Origin: a virus
Taxonomy: Duplodnaviria; Heunggongvirae; Uroviricota; Caudoviricetes
IMG/VR virus record: IMGVR_UViG_3300047548_000621
Location: 72,200 to 111,253 of that record
Length of the DNA stretch: 39,054 nucleotides
Reading direction: 5' to 3' (one strand)
A program made the position numbers and the translations under genes. The notes beneath the pieces are model-generated. The model saw only the letters and a program-made list of their open reading frames with translations. It searched no databases and had not been told where the DNA came from. Below, in pieces: positions 5,005-37,000 of this stretch. The number at the start of each line of letters is the position of its first letter. Position 1 is the stretch's first letter.

Positions 5005-5040
5005 TGAATTGTTCTCCTGATAGAAATGGCTTTGTAAAGT

Positions 5041-5048
5041 TACTTATG
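5041..5048 (-). promoter_or_regulatory. Late promoter variant (CATAAGTA)
   Basis: Upstream of the RBS/ATG at 5004 within an intergenic gap. Confidence 0.5.
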
Positions 5049-5111
5049 CCGTAGTCAGGAAAACACCGTATTAAGTGCGTATTTTTTACATTTTTAGTAT
5101 ATATAATAGAA

Positions 5112-5345
5112 TTATACTGAAGGGGCGCCGGCACCCTCTTCAGGCTTAGCACCGTACTGTTTACGAACCTTACCTAAATAAAGTTTCTTTTCATAATTTC
5201 TAACGTCAATCATTCTACGTAATTTACGTATTTGCTTTAGCGTGAGTTTAGTTTTGCGGCTGGTTCGATACACAGGCTTACTATTATCTTGATTAGTATC
5301 CTGAAAACCCTGTACGGGCGGATCAAACATTTCGAATAGCTGCAT
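5112..5345 (-). CDS. Small basic head-module protein (T4 gp67 position)
   Basis: 77 aa, RKTKLTLKQIRKLRRM; GGAG RBS and upstream late promoter. Confidence 0.7.
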   Translation of the reverse strand: MQLFEMFDPPVQGFQDTNQDNSKPVYRTSRKTKLTLKQIRKLRRMIDVRNYEKKLYLGKVRKQYGAKPEEGAGAPSV

Positions 5346-5366
5346 TTAAAATATCTCCGTATTAGA

Positions 5367-5374
5367 TATTTATC
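5367..5374 (-). promoter_or_regulatory. Late promoter GATAAATA
   Basis: tatttatc on plus strand, 21 nt upstream of the ATG at 5345. Confidence 0.65.
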
Positions 5375-5376
5375 TT

Positions 5377-15207: not shown

Positions 15208-16032
15208 ATGAATAATAACCCACTTAGACAATATTTTAGGAGACCGGCAGTTTACCTAAGGCTCCCTTCAGGAGGAAAAGACTATGCTGAGGGTATAATT
15301 GATTTACCAGAAAACGGAGAAATTCCGGTATACCCAATGACCGCAATTGATGAAATTACTACGAGAACACCAGACGCATTATTCAATGGAACGGCATTAG
15401 CAGAACTCATTAAAAGCTGTATTCCAAATATCAAAGATCCATGGGCAGTAAGCAGTAATGATATGGATGCTATATTAATATCAATCAAAGCAGCATCAGG
15501 CGGCGACACATTGGATATCGATACGGTTTGTCCTGCTTGCGAAGAATCAAATATTTACGGTATAAATTTATTGTCGATGCTTGCCAGTCTTAAACCTAGT
15601 GACTATGAAAAAGAATTAGAATCCGGTGAACTATTCATTAAATTTAAACCACTCAAGTATAAAGATATGAATGATGCTGCGATCGGTCAATTTGAACTGC
15701 AAAGAACTTTAGTCACCTTAGACAATATTGAATCAGAAGAAGAAAGAAATGCAGCAGGAAAACAAGCACTAGAGAATATCACAAATCTTACAATGGAAAT
15801 ACTCAGCAAGACTATCGATTATATCAAGACTCCTACTATTATAGTCCGAGAACAGGAGTATATTCTTGATTTCTTAAGAAACTGTGATAAGAATATTTTC
15901 ACTGCAATAAAAGATTTTAATACGGAACTCAAAGCTGCTAGTGAAATTAAACCAATACATATCACTTGCGCAAGCTGCGGTCACGAATACGATCAACAAT
16001 TTACATTAAGTCCCGTAGATTTTTTCGAATAA
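15208..16032 (+). CDS. gp26: T4 gp26-like baseplate hub / tail assembly chaperone
   Basis: NPLRQYFRRPAVYLRLPSGG, PVYPMTAIDE, TPDALFNG; two CxxC motifs (CPAC, CASC); GAGG RBS. Confidence 0.8.
   Translation: MNNNPLRQYFRRPAVYLRLPSGGKDYAEGIIDLPENGEIPVYPMTAIDEITTRTPDALFNGTALAELIKSCIPNIKDPWAVSSNDMDAILISIKAASGGDTLDIDTVCPACEESNIYGINLLSMLASLKPSDYEKELESGELFIKFKPLKYKDMNDAAIGQFELQRTLVTLDNIESEEERNAAGKQALENITNLTMEILSKTIDYIKTPTIIVREQEYILDFLRNCDKNIFTAIKDFNTELKAASEIKPIHITCASCGHEYDQQFTLSPVDFFE
16020..16026 (+). other. Candidate -1 ribosomal frameshift slippery heptamer T-TTT-TTC
   Basis: X-XXY-YYZ heptamer in the correct phase two codons before the gp26 stop; the -1 frame stays open to 16256. Confidence 0.7.
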
Positions 16033-16256
16033 GGCTTCTTAATTCTAGCCCCGAAGATATCCAGAAGCTATTAGAACAATACGAAAAAGAAATTGAGGGG
16101 ATTAAGAAGGGCGCATTAACCATGGCTTGGTATATGCGCGGCGGGGCATCATATGAGGATATCCTCAACATGTCCGACAGCGAGAGAAAGACTATTAACC
16201 AAATCATAGAAGATAATTTAGAGATAACTAAAAAGTCTCAAATGCCCTTCTTTTAA
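16026..16256 (+). CDS. gp51/GT-like C-terminal extension reached by -1 frameshift (or a 44-aa protein from ATG 16122)
   Basis: RIRLLNSSPEDIQKLLEQYEKEIEGIKKGALTMAWYMRGGASYEDILNMSDSERK; resembles small T4-like gp51 and P2 E'/lambda T segments. Confidence 0.7.
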   Translation, partial: RIRLLNSSPEDIQKLLEQYEKEIEGIKKGALTMAWYMRGGASYEDILNMSDSERKTINQIIEDNLEITKKSQMPFF

Positions 16257-16258
16257 CA

Positions 16259-16306
16259 GTTGATCTTCGATCAACTAGACTCTCACTACGTTCGGTCTAC
16301 TTTTTT
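16259..16306 (+). terminator. Double hairpin plus T6; terminator for the gp26 transcript
   Basis: GTTGATC-TTC-GATCAAC, then TAGAC...GTCTA, then TTTTTT at 16301-16306. Confidence 0.65.
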
Positions 16307-16309
16307 AAT

Positions 16310-16700
16310 TCTGTAAGACAATAACACTGAAGGGATATACATTGCCGGTTTAGAAGCCATGGTAGTGCTCCTCAGAGGCACTACCAAAGTTAGGACTTGC
16401 CATGGCCCGTCATCCTTTGCCGTCTATCCCCCGTTAAACTAGCCCTTAATGCTGTTTAACGTCACCGGTTGCCCTGTAAGATTTGATGGGGCTGTAGTGA
16501 AGCTATAAAGTGGAACTCACTTTACTCTTCGGCAACGCATGTCCTATAGCATCAAGACAGAATAGCTATAGACTCATTCAAGGTTCGCCTACCTAGCGAG
16601 AGCCTTGTCGGTGTTCCCTAGGATCACTCCTAGGCATACTCCAGAATCCGACCGCATTCATTCGTGGTGCAGTCTCAAGGAGGATCAAAAGATCAATATC
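16310..16700 (-). ncRNA. Candidate large structured non-coding RNA (class not recognised)
   Basis: No ORF >=60 aa; dense helices including CCTAGGA-GUGA-UCCUAGG (GNRA loop), GGUAGUGC/GCACUACC, GUUAAAC/GUUUAAC and an 11-bp long-range helix with two G-U pairs on the minus strand. Confidence 0.65.
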
Positions 16701-16719
16701 GATGTAAAAGGGTTCTGTA

Positions 16720-17268
16720 TTAGGTTTCTAAAGTAATAATATTTGTAGTGATATCTTTAGGTGAGCCTGAGTATGCTTTAAGAAGGTCTTTGTTGAGCCT
16801 GAAAAAATGTTCGAATTCCATAATAATCCATTCGCCTGACTTCTCAGAACGATAATGAATAAAGTTGTCAGCAACCCAAGTCATCTTGGATTCAACTGCT
16901 ACAAACTTACCCTTACGATTAAACTTCATAAACAATATGTTACAATCATTATCTTCTGCAACATCCATTAATTGTTTTAACCAAGTGTCTATGACCTTAC
17001 ATTCACCTGTTGGTAATAGATGAAAGGGGAAATCTGCATAACTTTTGCATTCTGCGTTGAACAGTTTAAATGTTTCACCGGGCACTATATCTCCCTTGAA
17101 ACTTCTTACTTGTCCTTCGTGTAAATACTGTTTTCTTGATTGATTCTTGCCACCAACATATGCCCCAGAACCCGGGGCACGAATAAAACTCTCATTATAA
17201 GTTTTGGTTAAAAACTGAGCAATCTCACGCTCAAAGCTTGAACCTTTATTTTTACTCGGTGATGGCAT
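16720..17268 (-). CDS. Holliday junction resolvase-like PD-(D/E)XK nuclease
   Basis: KNKGSSFEREIA...RAPGSGA...GDI...ECKSY (Hjc-type motifs); adjacent to gp46. Confidence 0.8.
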   Translation of the reverse strand: MPSPSKNKGSSFEREIAQFLTKTYNESFIRAPGSGAYVGGKNQSRKQYLHEGQVRSFKGDIVPGETFKLFNAECKSYADFPFHLLPTGECKVIDTWLKQLMDVAEDNDCNILFMKFNRKGKFVAVESKMTWVADNFIHYRSEKSGEWIIMEFEHFFRLNKDLLKAYSGSPKDITTNIITLET

Positions 17269-17306: not shown

Positions 17307-19073
17307 TTATTCTATGTCTGCTGCTGTGTTGTATGTGGTAAAACCGTTTTCTTTGACAACCTTAAGAACACTAGGAACACGACCTGCAAGTTCTTCTCTA
17401 TGACTGACAAGCCAAATGCTCTTGTTACGCCTGCGCGACATATCTTTGAGAATAGCCATACTATTCTCAACGCCTATACTATCCATACCTGAGTCGATCA
17501 ACTCGTCAATAAACAGTGTGTTGATCGGGAAATATAGATTTTCCCAAACATCTCTAAATGCGAAACTAAGCCCAAGAATCAATCGGTTCCGCTCACCGCG
17601 TGATAAGTTGTCAAAGTCAAGTTCACGCCCGAGTTCAGTAATTTCAACCGACAAATCGTTCTTGAATACGACCGTATGTGGCAATCCTATCTTGTCTAAG
17701 TAATGTGTTAATCTTGCATTCAAATAACTCAAGTTCTGATCAATGATCTTCTTACGAACAAAACTATCCTTACTAGTTAATATGTCCAAAAGAAACTTCA
17801 AGTGATCACCATATTTAGTTAGTTCATTGATTTTATCAAAAGTAACTTCCTGCAATGCTTGATTTTCCATATCAACAATCTGTTCTTGATATGGGTCAGT
17901 CTCATCTGTCTTATTCTCAATCTGCTGTAACAGATTAGCAACTGTAGTCTTATGCTCAATTGCTTCGGCTTCAGTTTCATAATGTGTAGTTGGTTTCTCG
18001 CCCAAAATAAACAATGAATTTTTATTTTTTTCTAATTCATTTTGGGTTTGGACAAGATCATCAACTGCTGTAGCAAGAAGTTCACGCTTACTGTTTATAA
18101 CAGCAGAGTGATTTTCATCGTGAAAGTCTTGACCACAAGCATAACACTTGTTATCTTCAAGTGTCTTAATTTCAGCTTCAAGTTTACTAACAATAGCCGT
18201 TTCTTTTTTCAATGTTGTTTCAAGGCGATTGATAGTAGAGTTGATGTTATTTAATTCTACTTTGTTTGCTTCGTAAATCTTGAGGTCATAATGAGATTGC
18301 AACTCATTAGTAATATCAATTTTCGATAGTTCATCGTATCGAAGTGCTAATAATTCAAGGTCTTCTTTATGTTTAGCTTCCCAAAGCCTTTGTCTACGCT
18401 TCAAGCTATCAATTTGCTCTTGAACACGTTTGTTGGCTTCTTCAACGGCTTTGTTTCTAAACTCTTCCTGCTGAATATTATCCTTGTTCAGCCTAATCTT
18501 TTCTTTGATTAAATCTGCTTTCTCAGAAAGCAAGGTGATGCCCAACAATTGTTCGATAACATTTCTTTGATCGTTTGCCTTCATTGACAAGAATGGCTCG
18601 CTGTATGTATTCAATGCAACAATATGCTTGAACATATCAGGAGTCATCCCTATAGCGTGTTCAATTGCTAACTGAGTTTCCTTGTTCTCGCCCTGCGCTT
18701 CATTCTTATCTTCTTTATTGTTTTGCAAATTGTTGTTTACATAGAACCTAAGAATATGCGGCTTTCTTCCGCGCTCAATCTTATAATCAATGCCGTTACT
18801 AGAAAACTCTAAAGTAACCATCATATTTTTGGCATTGGTTCGATTGATAAGGTTATCTTTACGAATCTGATTGATAGGGGAGCCGAACAATACATAGCTC
18901 AACCCTTGAATCAATGTAGTTTTGCCAGTACCATTTCTAGCACCGTCACCGCCCAAATCTATGTTCTCGCCTAAAATAAGCGTGAGTTCACTAGTATCAA
19001 AGTTTACTGCTTGGCAAACCGCCCCGATTGAAAGAAAATTACGCAGTGTTATGTTTTTAAATGTAATACTCAT
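17307..19073 (-). CDS. gp46: Recombination endonuclease ATPase subunit (gp46/SbcC/Rad50-like)
   Basis: Walker A GARNGTGKTT, zinc hook CYAC, signature LSRGE, Walker B LFIDE. Confidence 0.95.
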   Translation of the reverse strand: MSITFKNITLRNFLSIGAVCQAVNFDTSELTLILGENIDLGGDGARNGTGKTTLIQGLSYVLFGSPINQIRKDNLINRTNAKNMMVTLEFSSNGIDYKIERGRKPHILRFYVNNNLQNNKEDKNEAQGENKETQLAIEHAIGMTPDMFKHIVALNTYSEPFLSMKANDQRNVIEQLLGITLLSEKADLIKEKIRLNKDNIQQEEFRNKAVEEANKRVQEQIDSLKRRQRLWEAKHKEDLELLALRYDELSKIDITNELQSHYDLKIYEANKVELNNINSTINRLETTLKKETAIVSKLEAEIKTLEDNKCYACGQDFHDENHSAVINSKRELLATAVDDLVQTQNELEKNKNSLFILGEKPTTHYETEAEAIEHKTTVANLLQQIENKTDETDPYQEQIVDMENQALQEVTFDKINELTKYGDHLKFLLDILTSKDSFVRKKIIDQNLSYLNARLTHYLDKIGLPHTVVFKNDLSVEITELGRELDFDNLSRGERNRLILGLSFAFRDVWENLYFPINTLFIDELIDSGMDSIGVENSMAILKDMSRRRNKSIWLVSHREELAGRVPSVLKVVKENGFTTYNTAADIE

Positions 19074-19264
19074 TTGTTATCTTTGTCTGTTCTGTTATGT
19101 GCATCCATAAGAACTTGCAATTCGTTGTTAAGCTTTTGTAAATATGGCTTACCAAATTTTTCTAATCTTTCAATAGGATAGTTCTTAATTGCTTGTGTAT
19201 AGTTATCAATCTCAATTTTCTTTAATTGAATTTGATGTTCTAAGTTATATGCATTCCTCTTCAT
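19070..19264 (-). CDS. Small hypothetical protein between gp47 and gp46
   Basis: 64 aa, overlaps both neighbours by 4 nt (translational coupling). Confidence 0.65.
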   Translation of the reverse strand: MKRNAYNLEHQIQLKKIEIDNYTQAIKNYPIERLEKFGKPYLQKLNNELQVLMDAHNRTDKDNK

Positions 19265-20277
19265 AGGCTACGATAAATCTCTAACAATAGTTTAGGATCA
19301 AAAAACTCACTTTCAATAGCAGTGATTTGATCAATAACAATTTGGTCAACGGTTTCAAACTTGATTTCGCCGGGTGCAAGATCAATACTATGCTGCTCTA
19401 ACTTTATTGGAATCAATGACATTTCTCTAATACTGTGTTTTGGAATCAATGTTTCACGAATAAAGTTGGCTTCTTCATATGAAATATCAATATCAAGATG
19501 CACTCTAACACTACTTTTAGGAAGTAGCAAGCCTTCTGGGTTATCTAATACTTCACTTAACTTGTATACACGATATAATGGTTGCCCAGGCCAAGAATGA
19601 AATATTGGTTCTTCGCCCCATTCTAATATCATCATACCGCGTTGATCATCGCCTGCGTCAGCATAGTTGTGCGGGAAAGCATTACCGATATACCAGATGT
19701 TATTTCTAGCTTGTCGTTTATGAAAGTGACCACTGAATACTTTTTCAAATCCAGTGACATCATCATCTTTGAGTTCGCCGTGGTCGGGCATCTGAACCAT
19801 TGCGTTCATATAGAAGTTAGGTAGCTCTAAATGACTGAACAAATATTTGCCACTCATCTTAGCTAACTTTTTGTAGTCATCGCCCACTAACCAGGGAGCG
19901 ACAACTACATCACCTTCTTTGAACCAATCGTTAACAATTATAACATTTGATAAATGTCTGGCCCACTCGATACTATGTATGTCACGCTTATCTCTATAAT
20001 AGAGATCGTGATTGCCGGGAATAAAGAAAACTTTATCAAAATTTTGATTCAGTTTTTCTAATGCTCGTAAGCCATACTGTAATGTATGGATATTAATACT
20101 GGCTCTATGATGATTATAATCACCTAAAAAGAAACAAGTATCACAATTTTCTTCTTTTGCCTTACTAATAAACCAATCTACAAACTCAGTGCAGTCAGTA
20201 TTATGTTGTATACTATTGGACTTTAATCCAAAATGAATATCGGTGAAGACAGCAGCCTTCTTAAACAAATTCGCCAT
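19261..20277 (-). CDS. gp47: Recombination endonuclease nuclease subunit (gp47/SbcD/Mre11-like)
   Basis: Metallophosphoesterase motifs DIHFG, GDYNH, GNHD, SGHFH. Confidence 0.95.
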   Translation of the reverse strand: MANLFKKAAVFTDIHFGLKSNSIQHNTDCTEFVDWFISKAKEENCDTCFFLGDYNHHRASINIHTLQYGLRALEKLNQNFDKVFFIPGNHDLYYRDKRDIHSIEWARHLSNVIIVNDWFKEGDVVVAPWLVGDDYKKLAKMSGKYLFSHLELPNFYMNAMVQMPDHGELKDDDVTGFEKVFSGHFHKRQARNNIWYIGNAFPHNYADAGDDQRGMMILEWGEEPIFHSWPGQPLYRVYKLSEVLDNPEGLLLPKSSVRVHLDIDISYEEANFIRETLIPKHSIREMSLIPIKLEQHSIDLAPGEIKFETVDQIVIDQITAIESEFFDPKLLLEIYRSL

Positions 20278-20326: not shown

Positions 20327-21220
20327 TTAATCAGGTAATTGCATCTTCATACCCTTCATTTGTCTATTGAAGGATGGATTCATTCCATTCATTTCAAGAA
20401 TGTCATCACGAATATTTTGATTACGCTTTTCAGTATTCAATACACGGCAGAAACTGTTAGTAATAGCAGCAGTGTAATATGCGAATGGGTTAGCACTCTT
20501 TGCTTCATTGAATCGAAGCCCGACATACGTTAACTGCAACACAGCACTAGCCTTCATTTCATCGTTATATGTATAACCACGCCAGTTGAACTTCATAGCA
20601 TATTTCTCACAGAGCATCATATACATCCTAGCTAATTTGTTAGTAATGTTGCCGTGATCTTTATTGAAGTGTCCGTTTTCCATTCCGCCTTCCCAATGAC
20701 TCTTTCCAACACAATGAAAAGTGTTGTTTTCGTCTAATTTAAAATGCTGAAAGGGAGGGAAGTTAACTTTAACGTGCACCATATCGTCAACTTCTTTCTT
20801 AGTTGACTTGTCTTCTAAATCACTAAAGTCTTCACTATCGATATCATCGAATAAGAAAATATCTTTAGCAGATTTCTTTTTTACAGTTTTTCTGGGTTGC
20901 TTTTGTGCTACCGGAACGTGATCCCAAGTCATTACGCGAAAGATTAAATCAGTAGTCGGTATATTTTCTGCTAATACCTTCTCGCCTGTTTCTTGTGTTA
21001 GTCTATATGCTCTGTTTTCTTTTGCTTGTTGAATTTGAGTTGGCTTTAATGCATATTCTAAGCTTGTAGGAATATCACTATCTGGCATATCAATAATGAT
21101 ATCATATCTGTGATATTCTGGTTCTATGAAAGAACAATATGAATTTTTACTTGTATGTATTTCTTTTAAGATATCTTTATTGTTTAGGTAGTTTACTGTT
21201 TTCTTTGCTTTGATAGCCAT
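20327..21220 (-). CDS. gp55: Late-transcription sigma factor (T4 gp55-like) with a large insertion
   Basis: NYLNNKDIL...NWRGYTYNDEM...FNEAKSANPFAYYT; start placed at ATG 21220 after an AGGA RBS (297 aa), not the track's 21292. Confidence 0.88.
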   Translation of the reverse strand: MAIKAKKTVNYLNNKDILKEIHTSKNSYCSFIEPEYHRYDIIIDMPDSDIPTSLEYALKPTQIQQAKENRAYRLTQETGEKVLAENIPTTDLIFRVMTWDHVPVAQKQPRKTVKKKSAKDIFLFDDIDSEDFSDLEDKSTKKEVDDMVHVKVNFPPFQHFKLDENNTFHCVGKSHWEGGMENGHFNKDHGNITNKLARMYMMLCEKYAMKFNWRGYTYNDEMKASAVLQLTYVGLRFNEAKSANPFAYYTAAITNSFCRVLNTEKRNQNIRDDILEMNGMNPSFNRQMKGMKMQLPD

Positions 21221-21242
21221 ATTTCTTCCTATTATTATGGTA

Positions 21243-21276
21243 AGTATACTATTAGTGTTGCAAATGTGCAACACTA
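21243..21276 (-). promoter_or_regulatory. Sigma70-type promoter TTGCAC-17-TATACT overlapped by a 10-bp inverted repeat
   Basis: -35 at 21271-66, -10 at 21248-43; TAGTGTTGCA-AATG-TGCAACACTA at 21253-21276. Confidence 0.65.
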
Positions 21277-21304
21277 TTGGGTAAAAATACACAGTTTTTA
21301 TTGC

Positions 21305-30693: not shown

Positions 30694-33600
30694 ATGGCAA
30701 CAAGTTCAAGACAATCAGCATTGTTCGGTCTCAATGACTGGAAGACTATTTACCAAACCTTCAACCAAGCAGATTTTCGCAGCTATGACTACGAAACATT
30801 ACGTAAGTCATTCATTGATTACCTACAAACTTATTATCCTGAAACGTTTAACGATTATGTAGAATCTAGCGAATTCATTGCACTACTTGATGTTATTGCC
30901 TTTATGGGTCAAGGTCTTGCATTTCGCGATGACTTAAATGCTCGTGAAAATTTCATTGATACTGCTGAGCGTAGAGATAGTGTTATCAAGCTTGCTAATC
31001 TTGTTAGCTATACTCCAAAAAGAAACAATGCTGGTCAAGGTTATTTAAAAATCACCAGCATTCAAACATCACAAAACATCAATGACATTAATGGGTTGAA
31101 TTTAAGTAATGTTCCTGTATTATGGAATGACCCTGCAAATCCAAACTGGCTTGAACAGTTTAATACTATTTTAAATGCAGCAATGGTTAATACTCAAAAG
31201 ATAGGTAGGCCGGGCAACGTAGCAGACATTGGCGGTGTCACTACAAGCGAATATTCAATACAAATTCTCGACGGTGCGGTCCCAATCATACCGTTTACTT
31301 CTACTGTCAATAATCAAAATATGAATTTTGAATTGGTTAGTGTTTCAAGTGTAGACGAAGATTATGTATACGAAATTCCACCTGCTCCAAGTGGCAAGTT
31401 TAATTTACTATATAGAAATGACAAGCTAGGATTTGGAAGTCCCAACACAGGCTTCTTTGTTTACTTCAAGCAGGGAAGTTTGCAAACAAGCGACTTTACA
31501 CAACAGCAACAAATTAGTAATCTAAATGTTGATATTAATATTCAAGGTATTAATGAAACTGATACTTGGTTATATAAAATTAATAGTGATGGTACCAGAA
31601 CTCAATGGAAGCAAGTAGAAAACGTTTATGCTGATGCTTACTTGCAAAATGAAACGAGCTTAAAGCCAATATTCAGCGTCACATCAAGATTTAATGACCA
31701 AGTTACATATGTATTTGGTGACGGTGTATTCAGTGAAATGCCAGTAGGCAACTTTAGAGCTTATGTAAGAGCCGGTAATGCACTGACTTATACTATATAT
31801 CCAACTGATATGAATGGACTCAGTGTTGCATTCAGCTATGTTTCACGATTGGGTAGAGTAGAAACACTTACCCTAGGACTAGCACTAACTGAAGTAGTCA
31901 ATACTGCTCAGGCACGTGAACCAATTAGTGAGATTAAACAACGCGCACCAACACGTTATTATACACAGAATCGTATGGTAAATGGTGAAGACTACAATAA
32001 TTTCCCATATACACTATACAATTCAATTATTAAAAGTAAAGCTATCAATAGATCAAGTATTGGTGTTAGTAAAAATCTAGATTTACTCGATCCTACTGGA
32101 AAATATTCTAGCACTAACAGTTTTGGTAATGACGGAGCACTATATCAAAATGAAGATGATGGTTTCTTATCATTAACAATTAACAATACCAGCGATATTA
32201 TTTCATTCTTTACTGGACAATTAACTAGTGTGTTAGGACTTAATAGAGCCAACCAATATTACATTCAGCATTATCCCAGGTATACTATTACTGCACCACT
32301 ACCCAGTGACGACAATAAAGTATATTGGAACACTAGCACTGTAGATACTGGAGTAGAGTCTGGTTATCTATATACCAAATCGGGAAGTTTAACTATACCG
32401 CAAAGCGTAGGAACATTCAGCACTGTCAATTTAAAGTATATTACGCCAGGCGCTATTTGCAAGTTTGTTGCTCCTGATGGATTTTACTTTACTCCTGACA
32501 ATAGATTGAAAGCAGGGATTGCACCTAGCTCAGAATATACATATATTTGGTCCACCGTATTAAATGTTGTAGGGGATGGATCAAATAATGGCAATGGTAA
32601 TTTTGCTAATGGTTCTGGACCTATTAAAATGAATGGCTATATTCCAAACAACGTAGAATTAACAACAGTGATTCCTGCATTTGGAAACAACATCCCAACT
32701 GTGGTAATTCAAGAAGCAATATTGCGAATGGAGTTGAACGAGAACTTTACCTTAGTATTTGACAATAGTTTGTTAATCAATCAGCAACGTTGGTCTATTA
32801 GTACTATAGAAGATACAAATTATTTTGTTAGGTTCACTAGTTTAGGAAACAATAGATATAGTGTGACGTATAGATCACTTATTTACTATTTCGCAAGTGT
32901 TGCAGACACTAGATTTACATTCGCCAAAGATGAATTAGTATATGATCCTTTCTCAGGAAAAATCATTCAAGACTTTATTGACTTGTTGCCTATTAATACG
33001 CAACCAAACTCTAGCACGGCATTTGGTAGAAACTTAAAAGTTAATATCTTGGGCCAGACAACCGAAAGCGATGGATATGTCAATGACTTTGAAGTAGAAG
33101 TTGCTGCCACTGATGTGAGTAATAGACAACTTATACTGAACCCTGATTTCTTTACTGCCGTGACGGGATATGATTATTCTACAAATGCTCAGAATGTAGG
33201 AGTATATGTATTCTTCGAAACAGTACAAGATGCAATTAGTTTAACTAGGCAGTTTGTTATACCTAGTTCTGATGTAATTTATTCATATCAGACTATTACA
33301 CAGATTGAAGTTAATAAGTATGATTATCCACTTGGTCAATTGTTCTATGCGTACGGAGATAATAAGTTTTATAAGACTGTGCAAGACCAGACAGTAGTAA
33401 CTCCTTACTATATTTTAGTTGAGCAGCCTCAGTATTCAGTACAGTCAGGTAGGCAGGGATTAAGTTATCAGTATAAGCATAATGCTAATAATACTAATAG
33501 AATTGATCCGGCCACGACCAACATTATTGATTTATACGTAGTACCATATAGTTATTACACTCAATATGAAAACTACATTAATGATAGCACTAATACTGTT

Positions 33601-34074
33601 CCTGAACCCAATAAACCTACTCTTTCTGAACTAAGTCAGGCATATGGAAAAGTTCAAGATTATAAAATGTTGAGCGATGCTGTAGTCTTAAATAGTGTAG
33701 TATTCAAGCCCTTATTTGGTCCTAAAGCAGATACCGCATTACAGGCTACAATAAAGGTTATTAAGGATAGTAAAACTAATGCAAGTGATAGCGAGATTCG
33801 TAGTGCAGTATTGGCCGCAATGAACAATTATTTCAATATTAATAATTGGAACTTCGGTGATACTTTCTACTTTAGTGAGCTTGCCGCATATCTACACGCT
33901 GAGTGCGGAGACTTAATTAGCAGTGCTGTACTCGTACCAAACGACCCCAATAAACGATTCGGAGATTTGTATGAAATCAAATGTATGCCTTATGAAATAT
34001 TTGTAAACGCAGCAACGGCTAACGATGTTTTAGTTGTACCCGCATTAACCCCAGCAGAACTACAAATTGCATAA
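30694..34074 (+). CDS. gp6: Baseplate wedge subunit gp6-like
   Basis: DFRSYDYETLR...FNDYVESSEFIALLD...NARENFIDTAERRDSV; QNRMVNGEDY. Confidence 0.9.
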   Translation: MATSSRQSALFGLNDWKTIYQTFNQADFRSYDYETLRKSFIDYLQTYYPETFNDYVESSEFIALLDVIAFMGQGLAFRDDLNARENFIDTAERRDSVIKLANLVSYTPKRNNAGQGYLKITSIQTSQNINDINGLNLSNVPVLWNDPANPNWLEQFNTILNAAMVNTQKIGRPGNVADIGGVTTSEYSIQILDGAVPIIPFTSTVNNQNMNFELVSVSSVDEDYVYEIPPAPSGKFNLLYRNDKLGFGSPNTGFFVYFKQGSLQTSDFTQQQQISNLNVDINIQGINETDTWLYKINSDGTRTQWKQVENVYADAYLQNETSLKPIFSVTSRFNDQVTYVFGDGVFSEMPVGNFRAYVRAGNALTYTIYPTDMNGLSVAFSYVSRLGRVETLTLGLALTEVVNTAQAREPISEIKQRAPTRYYTQNRMVNGEDYNNFPYTLYNSIIKSKAINRSSIGVSKNLDLLDPTGKYSSTNSFGNDGALYQNEDDGFLSLTINNTSDIISFFTGQLTSVLGLNRANQYYIQHYPRYTITAPLPSDDNKVYWNTSTVDTGVESGYLYTKSGSLTIPQSVGTFSTVNLKYITPGAICKFVAPDGFYFTPDNRLKAGIAPSSEYTYIWSTVLNVVGDGSNNGNGNFANGSGPIKMNGYIPNNVELTTVIPAFGNNIPTVVIQEAILRMELNENFTLVFDNSLLINQQRWSISTIEDTNYFVRFTSLGNNRYSVTYRSLIYYFASVADTRFTFAKDELVYDPFSGKIIQDFIDLLPINTQPNSSTAFGRNLKVNILGQTTESDGYVNDFEVEVAATDVSNRQLILNPDFFTAVTGYDYSTNAQNVGVYVFFETVQDAISLTRQFVIPSSDVIYSYQTITQIEVNKYDYPLGQLFYAYGDNKFYKTVQDQTVVTPYYILVEQPQYSVQSGRQGLSYQYKHNANNTNRIDPATTNIIDLYVVPYSYYTQYENYINDSTNTVPEPNKPTLSELSQAYGKVQDYKMLSDAVVLNSVVFKPLFGPKADTALQATIKVIKDSKTNASDSEIRSAVLAAMNNYFNINNWNFGDTFYFSELAAYLHAECGDLISSAVLVPNDPNKRFGDLYEIKCMPYEIFVNAATANDVLVVPALTPAELQIA

Positions 34075-34082: not shown

Positions 34083-34088
34083 TGATAT

Positions 34089-37000
34089 ATGGCTAGAATC
34101 AGAACACTAAACTTTTTACCTGAAGTTTTTCAAACCCCAACCAACAGCCAATTTTTGGCAGCTACACTTGATCAGATAGTAAGTGAGCCTAATACTGTTA
34201 AGCAACAAGGCTATATCGGCAGTAAGTTAGGTTATGGAGTGAATGCTCTCGACTACTATGTTACTGAACCAACTAAAACCCGAGTTGACTATCAGTTAGA
34301 TCCAAGCGTTGTTTTCACAAAGCCCAATGAAACTATTGCACAAGATTTTATCACATATCCCGGTATACTTGACGCATTAAAATTGCAGGGAAGCATCACT
34401 GATGATAACAGTGAGCTTTTCCAAAGTCAATTTTATTCTTGGGACAGCTTTGTTGATCTGGACAAGTTGGTTAACTATCAAGAATATTATTGGTTGCCAG
34501 AAGGTCCACCTAGTGTTTCTGTTTCTCCCGGATTAGTATATTCAGTTGAAGAATACATCGTAACAGATTATGACAATCAATATGGAATTAACGAGAAGAC
34601 AGCACAGAATAGTGGTCCGTTAAATCCAACATTAACGTTATTGCGCGGCGGATCATATACCTTTTCTGTTAATCAAAACAGTCAGTTCTTTATTCAAACT
34701 TTGCCGGGCACTAGCGGATATAGCCCCATTCAGCCTAACATCCCTACACGAGAAGTATATGGAGTAGAAAACAATGGCGCGTCAACAGGATTTGTAACAT
34801 TTGATGTTCCCTTAAAAGATGCACAAGACGAATATGATTTCCCGGGTAATAATATAGTAGATTTAATTTGCACTACTCCGTTTAGTCAGGTCAATGGTCA
34901 AATACTAGGCACGTTTACTGATCCAGCGACCGGTGTAACATATAATGGATTGAGCGACATTGACGGCATTACCGGTATCGATGGTTTACGAATTATGTTC
35001 TATAACACCGGTATCTCAAATGAAGTAGGATATATCAATTCATATTACGGTGAGACTTCATATGACGTAAATGATGATTATTTTACTTCTCCATTGACAG
35101 TAGAAATAAGTTCTACCACTAATAGTGGTTCATATCTAACTCTTGGAACAGGGTATACCACTGATCAGTTAATCGTTAATCAAACTATTACTTTTGATAC
35201 TCCTACACTCGGCGGGCTATCACAAAATGTAGTTTATTTTGTAAAAGAAATATTAAATTCCACAGACTTTACAATCAGTGAATATATTGAAGGCCCTGCT
35301 CTCAGCGTAAATGATGATGCTGGAACAATGATTGCTAACATTAATCAAGGACAATATCAACAGGGATTTTATAGCACAGTAAATGATAACTTCTATCGCG
35401 TACAATTAGTAGGAACTGGCCCGAATCCTACAATTCGTTTATTACCAGATGGCACTATCCCCACTAATCAAAAGATAACACCACAATTCGGTGTTACTTA
35501 TATTAATCGTCCTTTCTATCGCAATGTAAACGGTGTAATTGGGTTAATTCCTATTATTACTGCACCATTAGATGTGTTATACTATCAAGATGGCACTAAC
35601 CCAAATAAAGTTGGGGAAATTCGTTTAGTTGACACTAACGCAGACAATTATATTAATGTCGATACTCAGATTATCGGCAAAGTAAATTATACTAGTCCAA
35701 ACGGTGTTGCATTTACAAACGGATTAAAGATAATATTTCAAGGTAATATTTTCCCTAGTAGATATTTAAATCAAGAATATTATGTCGAGGGAGTTGGAAC
35801 TAGTATTGAATTGGTTCCTGTATTAAGTCTAGAGTGCCCTGAGAAGTTTACAATTGGAGAATATATTCCCTGGGATATGTTTGGATTTGACGCAGGCCCC
35901 TGGGACATTAGTTTAAATATTCCTGTTTTACCTGACTATATTACTATTGCAAGAAACAGCATTAACAAAAATGCCTGGTCGCGCAGCAATCGTTGGTTCC
36001 ATACTGATATCATCACTCAGACGGCAAACTACAATAATAATCCAGACATTTTAACTAGGTATGCAACACTAGAGAACAAGGCGAAAAGGCCAATCATAGA
36101 GTTCTACCCTAACATCAAATTGTTTGATAGCGGATCTGTTGGTAAAAACGCAGTTGATTTCTTCGACACACGAACAACAGATGCTTTTAGTGAGGTTGCG
36201 GGATTATATAATTATTATCCTGACGTAGAAGTTTATACAAAAAATACAGCAGTAATTGACAGCACAATAACTAGCCCTGTATCATCAAGCAGTTTGATTG
36301 TTGGTAAGACATATGTTATTACCAGTAAGGGCACGACAAACTGGAATACGGCTGCCGGGACAACAGGCTTTTATTATGTAGAAGGGCAAATATTTGTTTG
36401 TGAGTCTACTAGTGTTGGAACAGGAACAGCTACTGAACTAGCATATGGGACAACTATTACCATACCCACAGCAGATATTAATGGTACATTCCAAGAAGGA
36501 ATGTATGTTGCAGATTATAATAATGTACTTCCTGTTAACACACAACTCGATAACATACAAATTGTAGGGTCAGATACTATATTAACCGTTTCCTGGGATC
36601 AACCTCAAAATGTTGATACTACTACTACGGTTATTGTAGGATCAGATAGCACAGTAAATGCATACGCAGTATATCCGGGAGCAAGAATTGTTTTTGCTAA
36701 TGATAGTGATCTACAAGTAAGAAATAAAATCTATGTTGTAGATTATGCAACAATTGGAACAAGTTCACAGCCTATTATTGTATTAAGTCCTGCTGAAGAT
36801 AGTATGCCATTACCTGATGAAATGATTGCAGTTAATAGAGGGTATAATTATCAAGGTAAAAGTTTTTACTATAATGGTATTATGTGGGATGAAGCGCAAT
36901 TAAAAATTGATGTTAATCAACCTCCCAAGTTTGATGTGTTTGATAACAATAATATAAGTTTCGGTGACACTGATGTTTATAATAGCAGCACCTTCAAGGG

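What the first reader, a model, noticed from the sequence alone, without database searches (positions are those of the whole stretch)
16310..16700. Unrecognised ~400-nt ornate structured RNA downstream of the resolvase-gp46-gp47-gp55 operon
This is the only long non-coding stretch in an otherwise densely packed window, and it is visibly more GC-rich than its flanks. Minus-strand elements include: GUCGG/CCGAC (16652-48/16611-07) enclosing a 7-bp GNRA hairpin (16634-17); UAAAGUG/CACUUUA (16524-06); GUUAAAC/GUUUAAC (16460-33); a three-way junction GCCAU/AUGGC with an 8-bp GGUAGUGC/GCACUACC arm (16406-16356); and an 11-bp long-range helix AUGCGUUGCCG(16540-30)/CGGCAAUGUAU(16347-37). The two G-U pairs in that helix and the GNRA loop fix the strand and favour RNA over DNA. 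GGGAU(16430-26)/AUCCC(16336-32) would cross that helix as a pseudoknot. I see no tRNA, tmRNA, RNase P or group I/II core motifs in the correct order. It may be a new large phage ncRNA, comparable in kind to GOLLD/ROOL, or an R-loop-forming origin RNA.
Basis: partly seen in the sequence, partly recalled or inferred. Interest (0 to 1): 0.85.

Follow-up and report, generated by a model that had tools for sequence, protein, structure and literature searches.

The report
New knotted RNA of jumbo phages
The gene-free gap behind the phage's small resolvase-like nuclease gene encodes a real, roughly 355-base, doubly knotted non-coding RNA; over 150 uncultured T4-like jumbo phages keep it, it matches no catalogued RNA family, and its job is unknown.

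Summary
Observation confirmed. Window 16341-16694, minus strand, is a conserved structured RNA. It is the only long ORF-free gap and has 46-47% GC against 33-41% in the flanks. I collected 152 distinct homologues from IMG/VR, 57-86% identical to the window. All lie directly 3' of the PDDEXK resolvase gene and convergent with gp26/gp51.

Covariation supports 13 helices, including a four-way junction and two pseudoknots. In the central domain 96.6% of cells pair, against 77.8% in shuffles, and 38 of 46 pairs show compensatory changes. G-U outnumbers A-C 273 to 31, which fixes the minus strand.

The real partner of GUUGCC is 16473-16468.

There is no Rfam 15 hit, even at E<=10, no ARAGORN call here, and the genome has its own tmRNA elsewhere. 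There is no copy in bacterial species genomes, PA5oct or SCTP-2, and I found no paper describing it.

Two short boxes stay identical to each other through about ten independent changes. This is unexplained.

Function is unknown. My best guess is a trans-acting, compactly folded RNA made from the 3' end of the gp55-gp47-gp46-nuclease operon. This scan had already flagged the same family on other genomes.

The parts
16683..16694 (-). H0: small 5' hairpin, 25 nt after the nuclease stop codon in the window (GAUC/GAUC, UUUU loop). In most relatives it is a 7-bp GGUCGAG/CUCGACC hairpin.
   Evidence: Sequence; alignments; distance from stop codon to the CCUCCUUGA anchor is 9-47 nt. Covariation is weak because the alignment is fuzzy here.
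16639..16682 (-). P1: CUCC (16682-79) pairs with GGAG (16642-39). It encloses the invariant UUGAG, hairpin H2 (16670-68/16656-54) and the invariant GAU(U)CUGGAGU.
   Evidence: 100% canonical in 120 sequences, with 4 inferred double changes. H2: C-G/U-G alternation and 19 double changes.
16617..16634 (-). H3 hairpin (7 bp, GUGA loop in the window; 4 basal pairs conserved).
   Evidence: 91-94% canonical, 58 inferred double-change events.
16463..16613 (-). H4 long-range helix, 16613-09 with 16467-63. It closes a four-way junction with H5, H6 and H7. A possible base triple joins 16480 to the terminal pair 16613-16463.
   Evidence: 95-100% canonical; the terminal pair shows UA 57, CG 32, UG 13, AU 12. 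Helix 1. Columns 16613 and 16480 both track 16463.
16579..16607 (-). H5 hairpin, 16607-03 with 16583-79, with the conserved internal GC..UCG...GCGAAC.
   Evidence: 100% canonical, 40 double-change events; helix 2.
16540..16576 (-). H6 hairpin, 16576-75/16541-40 and 16572-65/16550-43. Its loop 16560-55 forms pseudoknot PK1.
   Evidence: 98-100% canonical, 104 double-change events; helix 3.
16420..16425 (-). 3' strand of PK1, pairing with the H6 loop 16560-55 (CUGUCU/AGACGG in the window).
   Evidence: 97-99% canonical; UA 68/CG 48 and AU 59/GC 57 at two pairs; 45 double-change events. Helix 4.
16468..16536 (-). H7, GUUGCC (16536-31) with GGCAAC (16473-68), stacked on H4.
   Evidence: For example, GUUAUA co-occurs with UAUAAC while the 3' box stays GCGGCAAU. 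19 double-change events; helix 5.
16428..16491 (-). H9 = pseudoknot PK2, 16491-88 (CCCC) with 16431-28 (GGGG). It crosses H7 and H4.
   Evidence: 86-100% canonical; the first pair shows UA 71, CG 19, AU 7; 19 double-change events. Helix 7.
16432..16461 (-). H10 hairpin, 16461-54/16439-32 plus 16452/16442.
   Evidence: 94-99% canonical, 136+16 double-change events, many G-U pairs. Helix 8.
16356..16406 (-). 3' domain: H12 (16404-02/16360-58) encloses a variable hairpin and the near-invariant H11 (GGUAGUGC 16385-78 / GCACUACC 16368-61), followed by the invariant AUGG. Box A, xC(AU)GGCAA, lies at 16406-16397.
   Evidence: H11 is invariant in 30 of 31 protein-anchored, RNA-unbiased homologues and is rebuilt with compensations in L263. 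In H12, A-U becomes G-U in 31 sequences.
16341..16349 (-). Box B, xCGGCAAU, the last conserved element and the likely 3' boundary. Its variable base x (16348) is always the same base as x of box A (16405/06).
   Evidence: GG 65, UU 22, CC 19, and 4 exceptions among 110 sequences. Parsimony infers 12 joint changes, about 10 of them simultaneous in both boxes. No complementary third column was found.
16720..17268 (-). Upstream gene on the same strand: a 182-aa PD-(D/E)XK nuclease (Pfam PDDEXK_15; PHROG 'RusA-like Holliday junction resolvase'). It is the last gene of the gp55-gp47-gp46 operon.
   Evidence: It is adjacent in all 115 loci with enough upstream sequence but one (L084) and in 79 of 80 protein-anchored loci.
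16257..16310 (+). Not part of the RNA. These are two plus-strand hairpins (the first with a UUCG loop) followed by a U-run. They look like the terminator of the convergent gp26/gp51 operon and bound the gap on its far side.
   Evidence: Sequence; conserved in relatives. The simple terminator scan did not call them.

Best explanation
Window 16341-16694, minus strand, encodes a stand-alone functional RNA of about 355 nt. It belongs to a family that is not catalogued.

Shown: the RNA folds into a compact core of 13 helices. The 5' module is H0, P1, H2 and H3. H4 closes a four-way junction with H5, H6 and H7. Two pseudoknots tie this junction to the segment that follows (the H6 loop with 16425-20, and 16491-88 with 16431-28). 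The 3' module has a near-invariant 8-11-bp hairpin (H11) and two 'twin' boxes.

Inferred: there is no room and no recognisable promoter between the nuclease stop codon and the first hairpin. The RNA is therefore most likely made as the 3'-terminal part of the gp55-gp47-gp46-nuclease transcript, and then either kept or trimmed as a stable species.

Inferred: it acts in trans through its tertiary fold. Possible modes are binding a protein or small ligand, self-assembly or catalysis. It does not act by antisense pairing, as a guide for the neighbouring nuclease, or as a DNA element. The reasoning is that peripheral hairpins (H2, H3, H8 and the arm at 16396-87) vary freely in length and sequence, while junction strands and H11 are invariant. 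This is the pattern seen in ribozymes, riboswitch aptamers and RNP scaffolds.
For: - Conservation with compensatory change: fold_alignment on 15 sequences gave 31 of 81 pairs with double changes. The top APC-corrected mutual-information pairs among 97 sequences are almost all canonical stacked pairs.
- The count of structure pairs on 32 diverse sequences: 96.6% of cells paired against 77.8 +/- 0.6 in shuffles and 34-42% when slid; 38 of 46 pairs have double changes; score 0.600 against 0.225; 0 of 500 shuffles reach it.
- Events counted on a tree: 40-136 double changes per major helix, 45 for PK1 and 19 for PK2.
- Strand: 273 G-U against 31 A-C.
- Non-coding: indel lengths are not multiples of three (596/247/247 by length mod 3), and no open frame is shared.
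- Distribution: 152 distinct sequences. 79 of 80 loci chosen only by the nuclease protein carry the RNA on the same strand, and the 80th ends at a contig edge.
- It is a single copy in its own 244-kb genome.
- No TATAAATA and no consistently placed sigma-70-like motif lies upstream. The gap from the stop codon to the CCUCCUUGA anchor at the start of P1, which includes the H0 hairpin, is 9-47 nt.
- Not a known family: no Rfam match at gathering or at E<=10 on the window, or at E<=5 on 12 homologues. ARAGORN calls nothing here, and the genome has a separate permuted tmRNA.
Against: - There is no expression data for this window.
- No minus-strand intrinsic terminator follows box B, so the 3' end is defined only by where conservation stops.
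- Nothing identifies a partner, a ligand or a reaction.
- All homologues come from one clade with fixed synteny, so the gene context carries little independent information.
- Most sequences were fished with two conserved RNA patterns. This inflates the apparent invariance of H11 and of the ACUACAG...AACCGGU core. The 31 protein-anchored sequences correct this only in part.
Confidence: 0.6

Rival explanations
1. It is a cis-acting 3'-UTR element. On this reading the fold protects the gp55-gp47-gp46-nuclease mRNA from 3' exonucleases, or it blocks or insulates transcription running into the convergent late baseplate operon (gp26/gp51). That would limit antisense RNA or polymerase collisions.
For: It sits exactly between two convergent operons and starts 9-47 nt after a stop codon, with no promoter of its own. 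No canonical minus-strand terminator is present, so some other 3'-end device is plausible.
Against: Stabilisers and roadblocks need stable hairpins. They do not need about 355 nt with invariant junction strands, a four-way junction, two covarying pseudoknots and identity-linked boxes. Relatives with the same operon genes do without it: PA5oct, SCTP-2 and the L020/L021 loci.
Confidence: 0.13
2. It is the RNA partner of the adjacent PD-(D/E)XK nuclease, acting as a scaffold, regulator or guide. The layout would be analogous to TnpB/IscB with their omega RNAs.
For: The nuclease gene and the RNA are contiguous on one strand in all 115 loci with enough upstream sequence but one and in 79 of 80 protein-anchored loci. 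Sequence beyond box B is variable. RNA-linked nucleases carry a short C-terminal tail that the L020/L021 homologues lack.
Against: - Homologous nucleases of 57-59% (L020, L021) and 39-46% identity (PA5oct, SCTP-2, Phosso) have no such RNA beside them. A covariance model finds none anywhere in the PA5oct or SCTP-2 genomes.
- In L084 the RNA is intact, but the upstream genes are a radical-SAM/SPASM pair and a SegE-type GIY-YIG endonuclease, not the PD-(D/E)XK gene.
- The protein is a single 182-aa domain and the tail is not basic.
- The adjacency is shared by descent within one clade.
Confidence: 0.08
3. It is a conformational switch (riboswitch-like or co-transcriptional), in which repeated boxes compete for the same partners. 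Candidates are GUUGCC pairing with 16473-68 or with the 3' box CGGCAAU; GGUAGUG pairing with its H11 partner or with the central CACUAC; and 16463 pairing with 16613 or 16480.
For: The 3' box keeps 66-98% complementarity to the 5' box without compensation. CACUAC occurs twice. Column 16463 tracks two partners. There are four GCAA-type boxes, three of which changed C to U together in one clade.
Against: When GUUGCC changes, only 16473-68 follows. When H11 changes (GGUAGGGC, GGUAGAGC), the central CACUAC does not. There is no downstream gene on the same strand to regulate. The 16480 signal fits a U.A-U / C.G-C type base triple equally well.
Confidence: 0.1
4. It is a DNA-level element, such as a replication origin with an R-loop, a packaging site or a recombination site. 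The twin boxes would then be direct repeats.
For: In T4, oriF lies in uvsY next to genes 25/26 (my own knowledge, not checked here). The twin boxes are direct repeats about 55 nt apart.
Against: Strand-specific G-U pairs (273 against 31 A-C) and pseudoknot covariation are RNA signatures. The GC-skew minimum lies about 4.5 kb from the RNA, beside the operon divergence point. Target-site duplications would decay rather than co-vary through about 10 switches.
Confidence: 0.03
5. It is a very divergent member of a known class (RNase P RNA, tmRNA, group I intron, Polynucleobacter-1, GOLLD/ROOL) that covariance models fail to recognise.
For: Its size (about 355 nt) and its two pseudoknots recall RNase P RNA and tmRNA. 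The order H9-5', H7/H4-3', H10 hairpin, H9-3' resembles group I P7-P3-P8-P7. Earlier notes of this scan name Polynucleobacter-1 as the closest family.
Against: - There is no Rfam hit for any of these at E<=10 on the window or E<=5 on 12 homologues.
- No helix joins the 5' and 3' ends, and there is no P4-type conserved strand, no tRNA-like domain and no tag frame.
- The genome has its own tmRNA.
- The element interrupts no gene.
- There is no J8/7-like strand between H10 and H9-3', where the spacing is 0-1 nt.
Confidence: 0.05

Closest known systems
GOLLD (RF01998) and ROOL (RF03087): large 'ornate' RNAs, often phage- or prophage-borne, shown by cryo-EM to form RNA-only multimers (10.1101/2024.12.08.627333)
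   Same: It is a large, multi-helix, pseudoknotted, non-coding RNA carried by phages. It was found by conservation and covariation and has no known function. Its invariant palindromic CCAUGG and its repeated boxes would be compatible with self-assembly, but this is untested.
   Different: There is no sequence or structure homology: no Rfam hit at E<=10. It is smaller, about 355 nt against about 580-800. The host range differs (uncultured T4-like jumbo phages). It has a fixed position at the end of a recombination operon. Multimerisation is not shown.
Bacterial RNase P RNA and tmRNA
   Same: They are similar in length, have several pseudoknots, and are sometimes phage-encoded. This genome encodes a permuted tmRNA.
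   Different: There is no terminal helix joining the two ends, no tRNA-like domain or tag frame, no P4 consensus, and no Rfam or ARAGORN match.
Group I intron core (P3-P7 pseudoknot)
   Same: The order of strands around PK2 (H9-5', H7/H4-3', H10 hairpin, H9-3') has the same topology as P7-P3-P8-P7.
   Different: It is not inserted in a gene. There is no J8/7 strand, no P1/P10 guide context, and no Rfam Intron_gpI hit.
Omega/reRNA of TnpB and IscB (a structured RNA encoded next to its nuclease)
   Same: A large structured RNA lies immediately beside a small nuclease gene on the same strand.
   Different: The nuclease is PD-(D/E)XK, not RuvC/HNH. Homologous nucleases lack the RNA. One member (L084) has the RNA without the nuclease gene beside it. 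There are no transposon ends and no demonstrated guide.
Polynucleobacter-1 motif (RF01718; Weinberg et al. 2010, PMC2864571), named as closest by earlier notes of this scan
   Same: Both come from fresh-water habitats (paper table).
   Different: No RF01718 match appeared on the window at E<=10 or on 12 homologues at E<=5. The paper lists it as a candidate cis-regulatory motif of Burkholderiales.

Membership tests
Any Rfam 15 family (4227 models) | Covariance-model score at or above the family's gathering threshold | tested here: not met
   0 matches on the whole window. At E<=10 on 16100-16900 there were only four chance-level hits of 13-16 bits, none covering the element. On 12 homologous loci at E<=5 nothing fell on the RNA.
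tmRNA | A tRNA-like domain formed by the 5' and 3' ends, plus a tag-peptide reading frame | tested here: not met
   ARAGORN finds only tRNA-Phe in the window. It finds a separate permuted tmRNA at genome 93064-93499. There is no Rfam tmRNA hit.
RNase P RNA | A P1-P4 framework closing the molecule, with universally conserved P4 strands | tested here: not met
   No covarying helix joins the ends. The proposed 16540-30/16347-37 helix fails. There is no Rfam RNase P hit. Catalysis is not testable here.
Group I intron | Insertion in a host gene with P1/P10 exon pairing; a P3-P7 pseudoknot with J8/7 and a G-binding site | tested here: not met
   It lies between two complete convergent genes. It has a P7-P3-P8-like topology only, with 0-1 nt between H10 and H9-3'. 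There is no Rfam hit.
GOLLD / ROOL | Homology to RF01998 or RF03087 | tested here: not met
   No hit.
GOLLD / ROOL | Assembly into RNA-only multimers | not testable with these tools
   This needs cryo-EM, SEC-MALS or native gels.
Polynucleobacter-1 (RF01718) | Match to the RF01718 model | tested here: not met
   Absent from the cmscan output at E<=10 (window) and E<=5 (12 homologues).
Nuclease-associated guide RNA (OMEGA-like) | Obligate co-occurrence of the RNA and its nuclease | tested here: not met
   Nuclease homologues occur without the RNA (L020, L021, PA5oct, SCTP-2). The RNA occurs without the adjacent nuclease gene in L084.
Nuclease-associated guide RNA (OMEGA-like) | A variable guide segment matching a target | not tested
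   The tail after box B is variable, but no target search across genomes was possible.
T4-type R-loop origin (oriF/oriG) | A promoter plus a DNA-unwinding element that forms a persistent R-loop; the structure is not conserved at RNA level | tested here: inconclusive
   RNA-level covariation argues for a folded RNA. Origin activity itself cannot be tested here.

The most novel reading that the evidence does not exclude
This is a new class of large functional RNA: a ribozyme, an RNA-only assembly or a high-affinity RNP core. Its two 'twin' boxes (xC(AU)GGCAA at 16406-16397 and xCGGCAA at 16348-42) are held identical by a mechanism not known from other RNAs. One possibility is that both boxes dock on one symmetric or shared partner, in trans or in a homodimer. 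Another is that they form a like-with-like contact.
Probability: 0.25. Interest if true: 0.9.

Novelty: categorically new. Interest (0 to 1): 0.78.

Why it matters
Few RNAs longer than 300 nt with intricate conserved tertiary architecture are known, and nearly all that have been solved turned out to be ribozymes, riboswitch-like sensors, RNP cores or self-assembling cages. This one is kept as tightly as the neighbouring core genes in a large clade of uncultured T4-like jumbo phages. It sits at the end of the operon that encodes the late sigma factor and the Mre11/Rad50-like recombination nuclease. It also carries identity covariation between two boxes, which ordinary base pairing does not explain. 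Working out its job could reveal a new RNA-based step in jumbo-phage infection. It is also a well-defined target, with about 150 sequences and a well-supported structure for the central domain, for cryo-EM and biochemical screening.

Tried and rejected
- Rfam at gathering and at permissive E-values, on the window, on PA5oct and on 12 homologues: nothing.
- blastn of the gap against 50,697 cultured phage records: no match.
- Pattern scan of 185,579 bacterial and archaeal species genomes for the H11 signature: two matches, in a Chlorobiaceae MAG and a Methylovirgula MAG. Neither is recognised by the family HMM, so both are chance.
- Covariance model R1 (central domain, 201 positions) against the complete PA5oct and SCTP-2 genomes and the two partial (11% and 25% complete) records behind L020 and L021: only a 17-bit hit inside an SCTP-2 CDS that lacks H4-H6. 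Rejected.
- PA5oct's 2-kb stretch of tiny ORFs between its baseplate-hub and resolvase genes: not homologous. The four ncRNAs reported from PA5oct RNA-seq lie at other loci.
- A search for a third column complementary to the twin-box variable base: none found.
- A search for a T4 late promoter (TATAAATA) or a consistently placed -35/-10 upstream: none found.
- The alternative pairing of GUUGCC with the 3' box, which RNAalifold on 15 sequences predicted: rejected on 121-152 sequences.
- mafft-qinsi was unavailable, so alignments are sequence-based L-INS-i. The variable hairpins H0, H8 and the 16396-87 arm are poorly aligned, and their pair statistics are unreliable.
- Literature searches found no description of this RNA. 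The library does not cover all journals.
Full report
WHAT IS THERE

The window is bases 861-39914 of a 244-kb IMG/VR virus record. Its genes mark it as a distant T4-like jumbo phage. On the minus strand lie gp55 late sigma factor (20327-21292), gp47 (19261-20277), gp46 (17307-19073) and a 182-aa PD-(D/E)XK 'resolvase' (16720-17268). On the plus strand, converging on them, lie a gp26-like baseplate hub (15208-16032) and a 96-aa ORF (15966-16256).

The 463-nt gap between the two stop codons is the only long ORF-free stretch. The other apparent gap, 5005-5376, holds 52- and 77-aa ORFs. GC in the gap is 0.46-0.475 against 0.33-0.41 beside it. The single-sequence fold energy is only modestly better than shuffles on either strand (z -2.7 and -2.3), so the case rests on comparison.

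HOMOLOGUES

Loci fetched with the nuclease protein showed that 18 of 20 relatives have the same gap, 70-80% identical in nucleotides. They show blocks of invariant sequence separated by hairpins of changing sequence. One used the H11 signature and the other the ACUACAG...AACCGGU core. Every stretch matched by either pattern also matched the family HMM.

A protein-anchored fetch, which is unbiased with respect to the RNA, returned 80 loci with nucleases 66-83% identical. Of these, 79 carry the RNA on the same strand just downstream, and the 80th ends 59 nt after the gene. In total I aligned 152 distinct sequences, 57-86% identical to the window.

The synteny nuclease > RNA < gp51/gp26 holds in every locus with room, except L084.

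STRUCTURE

RNAalifold on 15 sequences already gave 31 pairs with double changes. On 97-121 sequences, APC-corrected mutual information puts canonical, stacked pairs at the top of about 88,000 column pairs. Per-pair counts and parsimony counts of events on a FastTree tree support the following helices, in window coordinates with 5'>3' descending:
- P1, 16682-79/16642-39
- H2, 16670-68/16656-54
- H3, 16634-31/16620-17
- H4, 16613-09/16467-63
- H5, 16607-03/16583-79
- H6, 16576-65/16550-40
- PK1, the H6 loop 16560-55 with 16425-20
- H7, 16536-31/16473-68
- H8, a variable hairpin at about 16529-16500
- H9 = PK2, 16491-88/16431-28
- H10, 16461-52/16442-32
- H12, 16404-02/16360-58
- H11, 16385-78/16368-61

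H4, H5, H6 and H7 form a four-way junction, and H7 stacks on H4. PK1 and PK2 both cross H4, so the core is doubly knotted.

The tool count on an independent 32-sequence alignment of the central domain gives 96.6% of cells paired. Shuffles give 77.8 +/- 0.6 and slid partners give 34-42%. Of 46 pairs, 38 have double changes, and the covariation score is 0.600 against 0.225, reached by 0 of 500 shuffles. Both pseudoknots are supported.

Column 16480 also tracks the terminal H4 pair 16613-16463, with the combinations U/A/U, C/G/C and A/U/A. This fits a base triple as well as an alternative pair.

H11 is invariant in 30 of 31 unbiased sequences. In the most divergent one, L263, it is rebuilt with compensating changes.

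STRAND AND CODING

At the 65 supported pairs there are 273 G-U against 31 A-C cells. The RNA is therefore read from the window's minus strand, the same strand as the nuclease gene. Indel lengths are not multiples of three, and no frame is open in common.

Right:
- the element, its extent, its strand and its GC richness
- the hairpins at 16634-17, 16524-06 and 16460-33
- the GGUAGUGC/GCACUACC arm, and roughly the three-way junction around it
- the absence of known-class motifs

Wrong:
- The 11-bp closing helix 16540-30/16347-37. GUUGCC covaries with GGCAAC at 16473-68. For example, GUUAUA goes with UAUAAC while the 3' box stays GCGGCAAU.
- GUCGG/CCGAC, which is canonical in only 23-24% of sequences at two pairs.
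- The GGGAU/AUCCC pseudoknot, 33-70% canonical.

The GNRA loop of 16634-17 is not conserved. The two real pseudoknots were missed.

TWIN BOXES (UNEXPLAINED)

Box A, xC(AU)GGCAA (16406-16397), and box B, xCGGCAA(U) (16348-41), flank the H12/H11 module. Their variable base x is the same in both boxes in 106 of 110 sequences (G/G 65, U/U 22, C/C 19). Parsimony infers 12 joint changes, about 10 of them simultaneous in both boxes. In one clade the C of GGCAA also became U in both boxes and in the AGCAA of the H10 loop.

No column of the RNA is complementary to x. Ordinary pairing inside the molecule therefore does not explain the link. Candidate explanations are a shared partner in trans, a symmetric dimer, or a like-with-like contact. 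Earlier notes of this scan had drawn attention to 'two boxes that mutate together', and I verified the effect independently here.

WHAT IT IS NOT

- There are no Rfam 15 matches at gathering score on the window, or at E<=10 on 16100-16900, or at E<=5 on 12 homologous loci. That includes RF01718 (Polynucleobacter-1), which earlier notes called the closest family.
- ARAGORN finds nothing here, and the genome has its own permuted tmRNA elsewhere.
- blastn finds nothing in cultured phages.
- The H11 pattern has only two chance matches in 185,579 prokaryote species genomes.
- A covariance model of the central domain (R1, 201 positions, 199 bits on the window) finds no copy in the complete genomes of the nearest cultured relatives, Pseudomonas phage PA5oct and Salicola phage SCTP-2. 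It also finds none in the two partial records behind L020 and L021, nor a second copy in the window's own genome.
- PA5oct's published ncRNAs lie at other loci (PMC7318152).
- Full-text searches found no description of this RNA.

HOW IT LIKELY WORKS

Shown: this is a strongly constrained RNA fold. Its junction strands and H11 are invariant, while its peripheral hairpins are free to vary. It has a fixed position after the last gene of the gp55-gp47-gp46-nuclease operon.

Inferred: the RNA is co-transcribed with that operon. The stop codon lies only 9-47 nt upstream of the CCUCCUUGA anchor at the start of P1, a distance that includes the H0 hairpin. There is no TATAAATA and no consistently placed sigma-70-like motif.

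Inferred: it acts in trans through its three-dimensional fold. I put about 60% on this general reading. Within it I cannot choose between protein or ligand binding, self-assembly and catalysis.

Rivals:
- A cis 3'-UTR stabiliser or insulator between the convergent operons, about 13%. The complexity is excessive for that job, and relatives do without it.
- A conformational switch using the repeated boxes, about 10%. Covariation backs only one partner for each strand.
- A cofactor of the neighbouring nuclease, about 8%. Nuclease homologues of 39-59% identity lack the RNA. In L084 the RNA is intact behind a radical-SAM/SPASM pair and a SegE-type GIY-YIG endonuclease instead.
- A divergent member of a known class, about 5%.
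- A DNA-level site such as an origin, about 3%.

NOVELTY AND LIMITS

By every test available here this is an uncatalogued RNA family with its own architecture. The general phenomenon of large ornate phage RNAs of unknown function (GOLLD, ROOL) is known, but there is no homology to them.

The same family was already flagged by this scan on other genomes.

Other limits:
- All members come from one uncultured clade.
- Most sequences were fished with RNA patterns.
- The alignments are sequence-based.
- The ends of the RNA are inferred from conservation only.

Noticed in passing
Own genome G000:C1:93064-93499 (outside the window): ARAGORN calls a permuted (two-piece) tmRNA with tag peptide ANDNDFAFELALAA. 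This jumbo phage therefore carries its own tmRNA in addition to the RNA studied here.
   Followed up: no
window 34086-34167 (-): A tRNA-Phe (GAA) lies on the minus strand, wedged between two very large plus-strand ORFs (30694-34074 and 34089-39053). It overlaps the start of the second ORF as listed.
   Followed up: no
window 15966-16256 (+) overlapping 15208-16032 (+): The 96-aa ORF after the gp26-like gene overlaps it by 67 nt in another frame. Another first-stage note (e1-5430258) proposes a programmed -1 frameshift at GAT-TTT-TTC. The same two-ORF overlap recurs in relatives.
   Followed up: no
window 16259-16307 (+): There is a conserved pair of plus-strand hairpins (the first with a UUCG loop) followed by a U-run. 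They look like the terminator of the gp26/gp51 operon. They are conserved in relatives, but the simple terminator scan missed them.
   Followed up: partly
L084:5786-7161 (+): In one relative, a radical-SAM gene, a SPASM-domain ORF and a SegE-like GIY-YIG homing endonuclease replace the PD-(D/E)XK nuclease gene between gp46 and the RNA. This looks like a mobile-element insertion or replacement.
   Followed up: partly
L182 (PA5oct NC_071039.1 75.7-77.2 kb): The 1.5 kb between the baseplate-hub and resolvase genes of PA5oct holds only 38-50-aa 'hypothetical' ORFs and is more GC-rich (0.35-0.41) than the locus as a whole (0.31). It might hold an unrelated ncRNA. It is not homologous to this family.
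   Followed up: partly
L002/L003/L005 relative to window about 16638: Some relatives carry an extra 20-nt hairpin inserted right after CUGGAG. L002-L004 also have about 100 nt of direct-repeat-like sequence before H0.
   Followed up: no
window 16720-17268 (-) and homologues (alignment A2): Nucleases that are followed by the RNA end in a 15-25-aa Ser/Thr-rich tail. The two homologues without the RNA (L020, L021) lack this tail.
   Followed up: no
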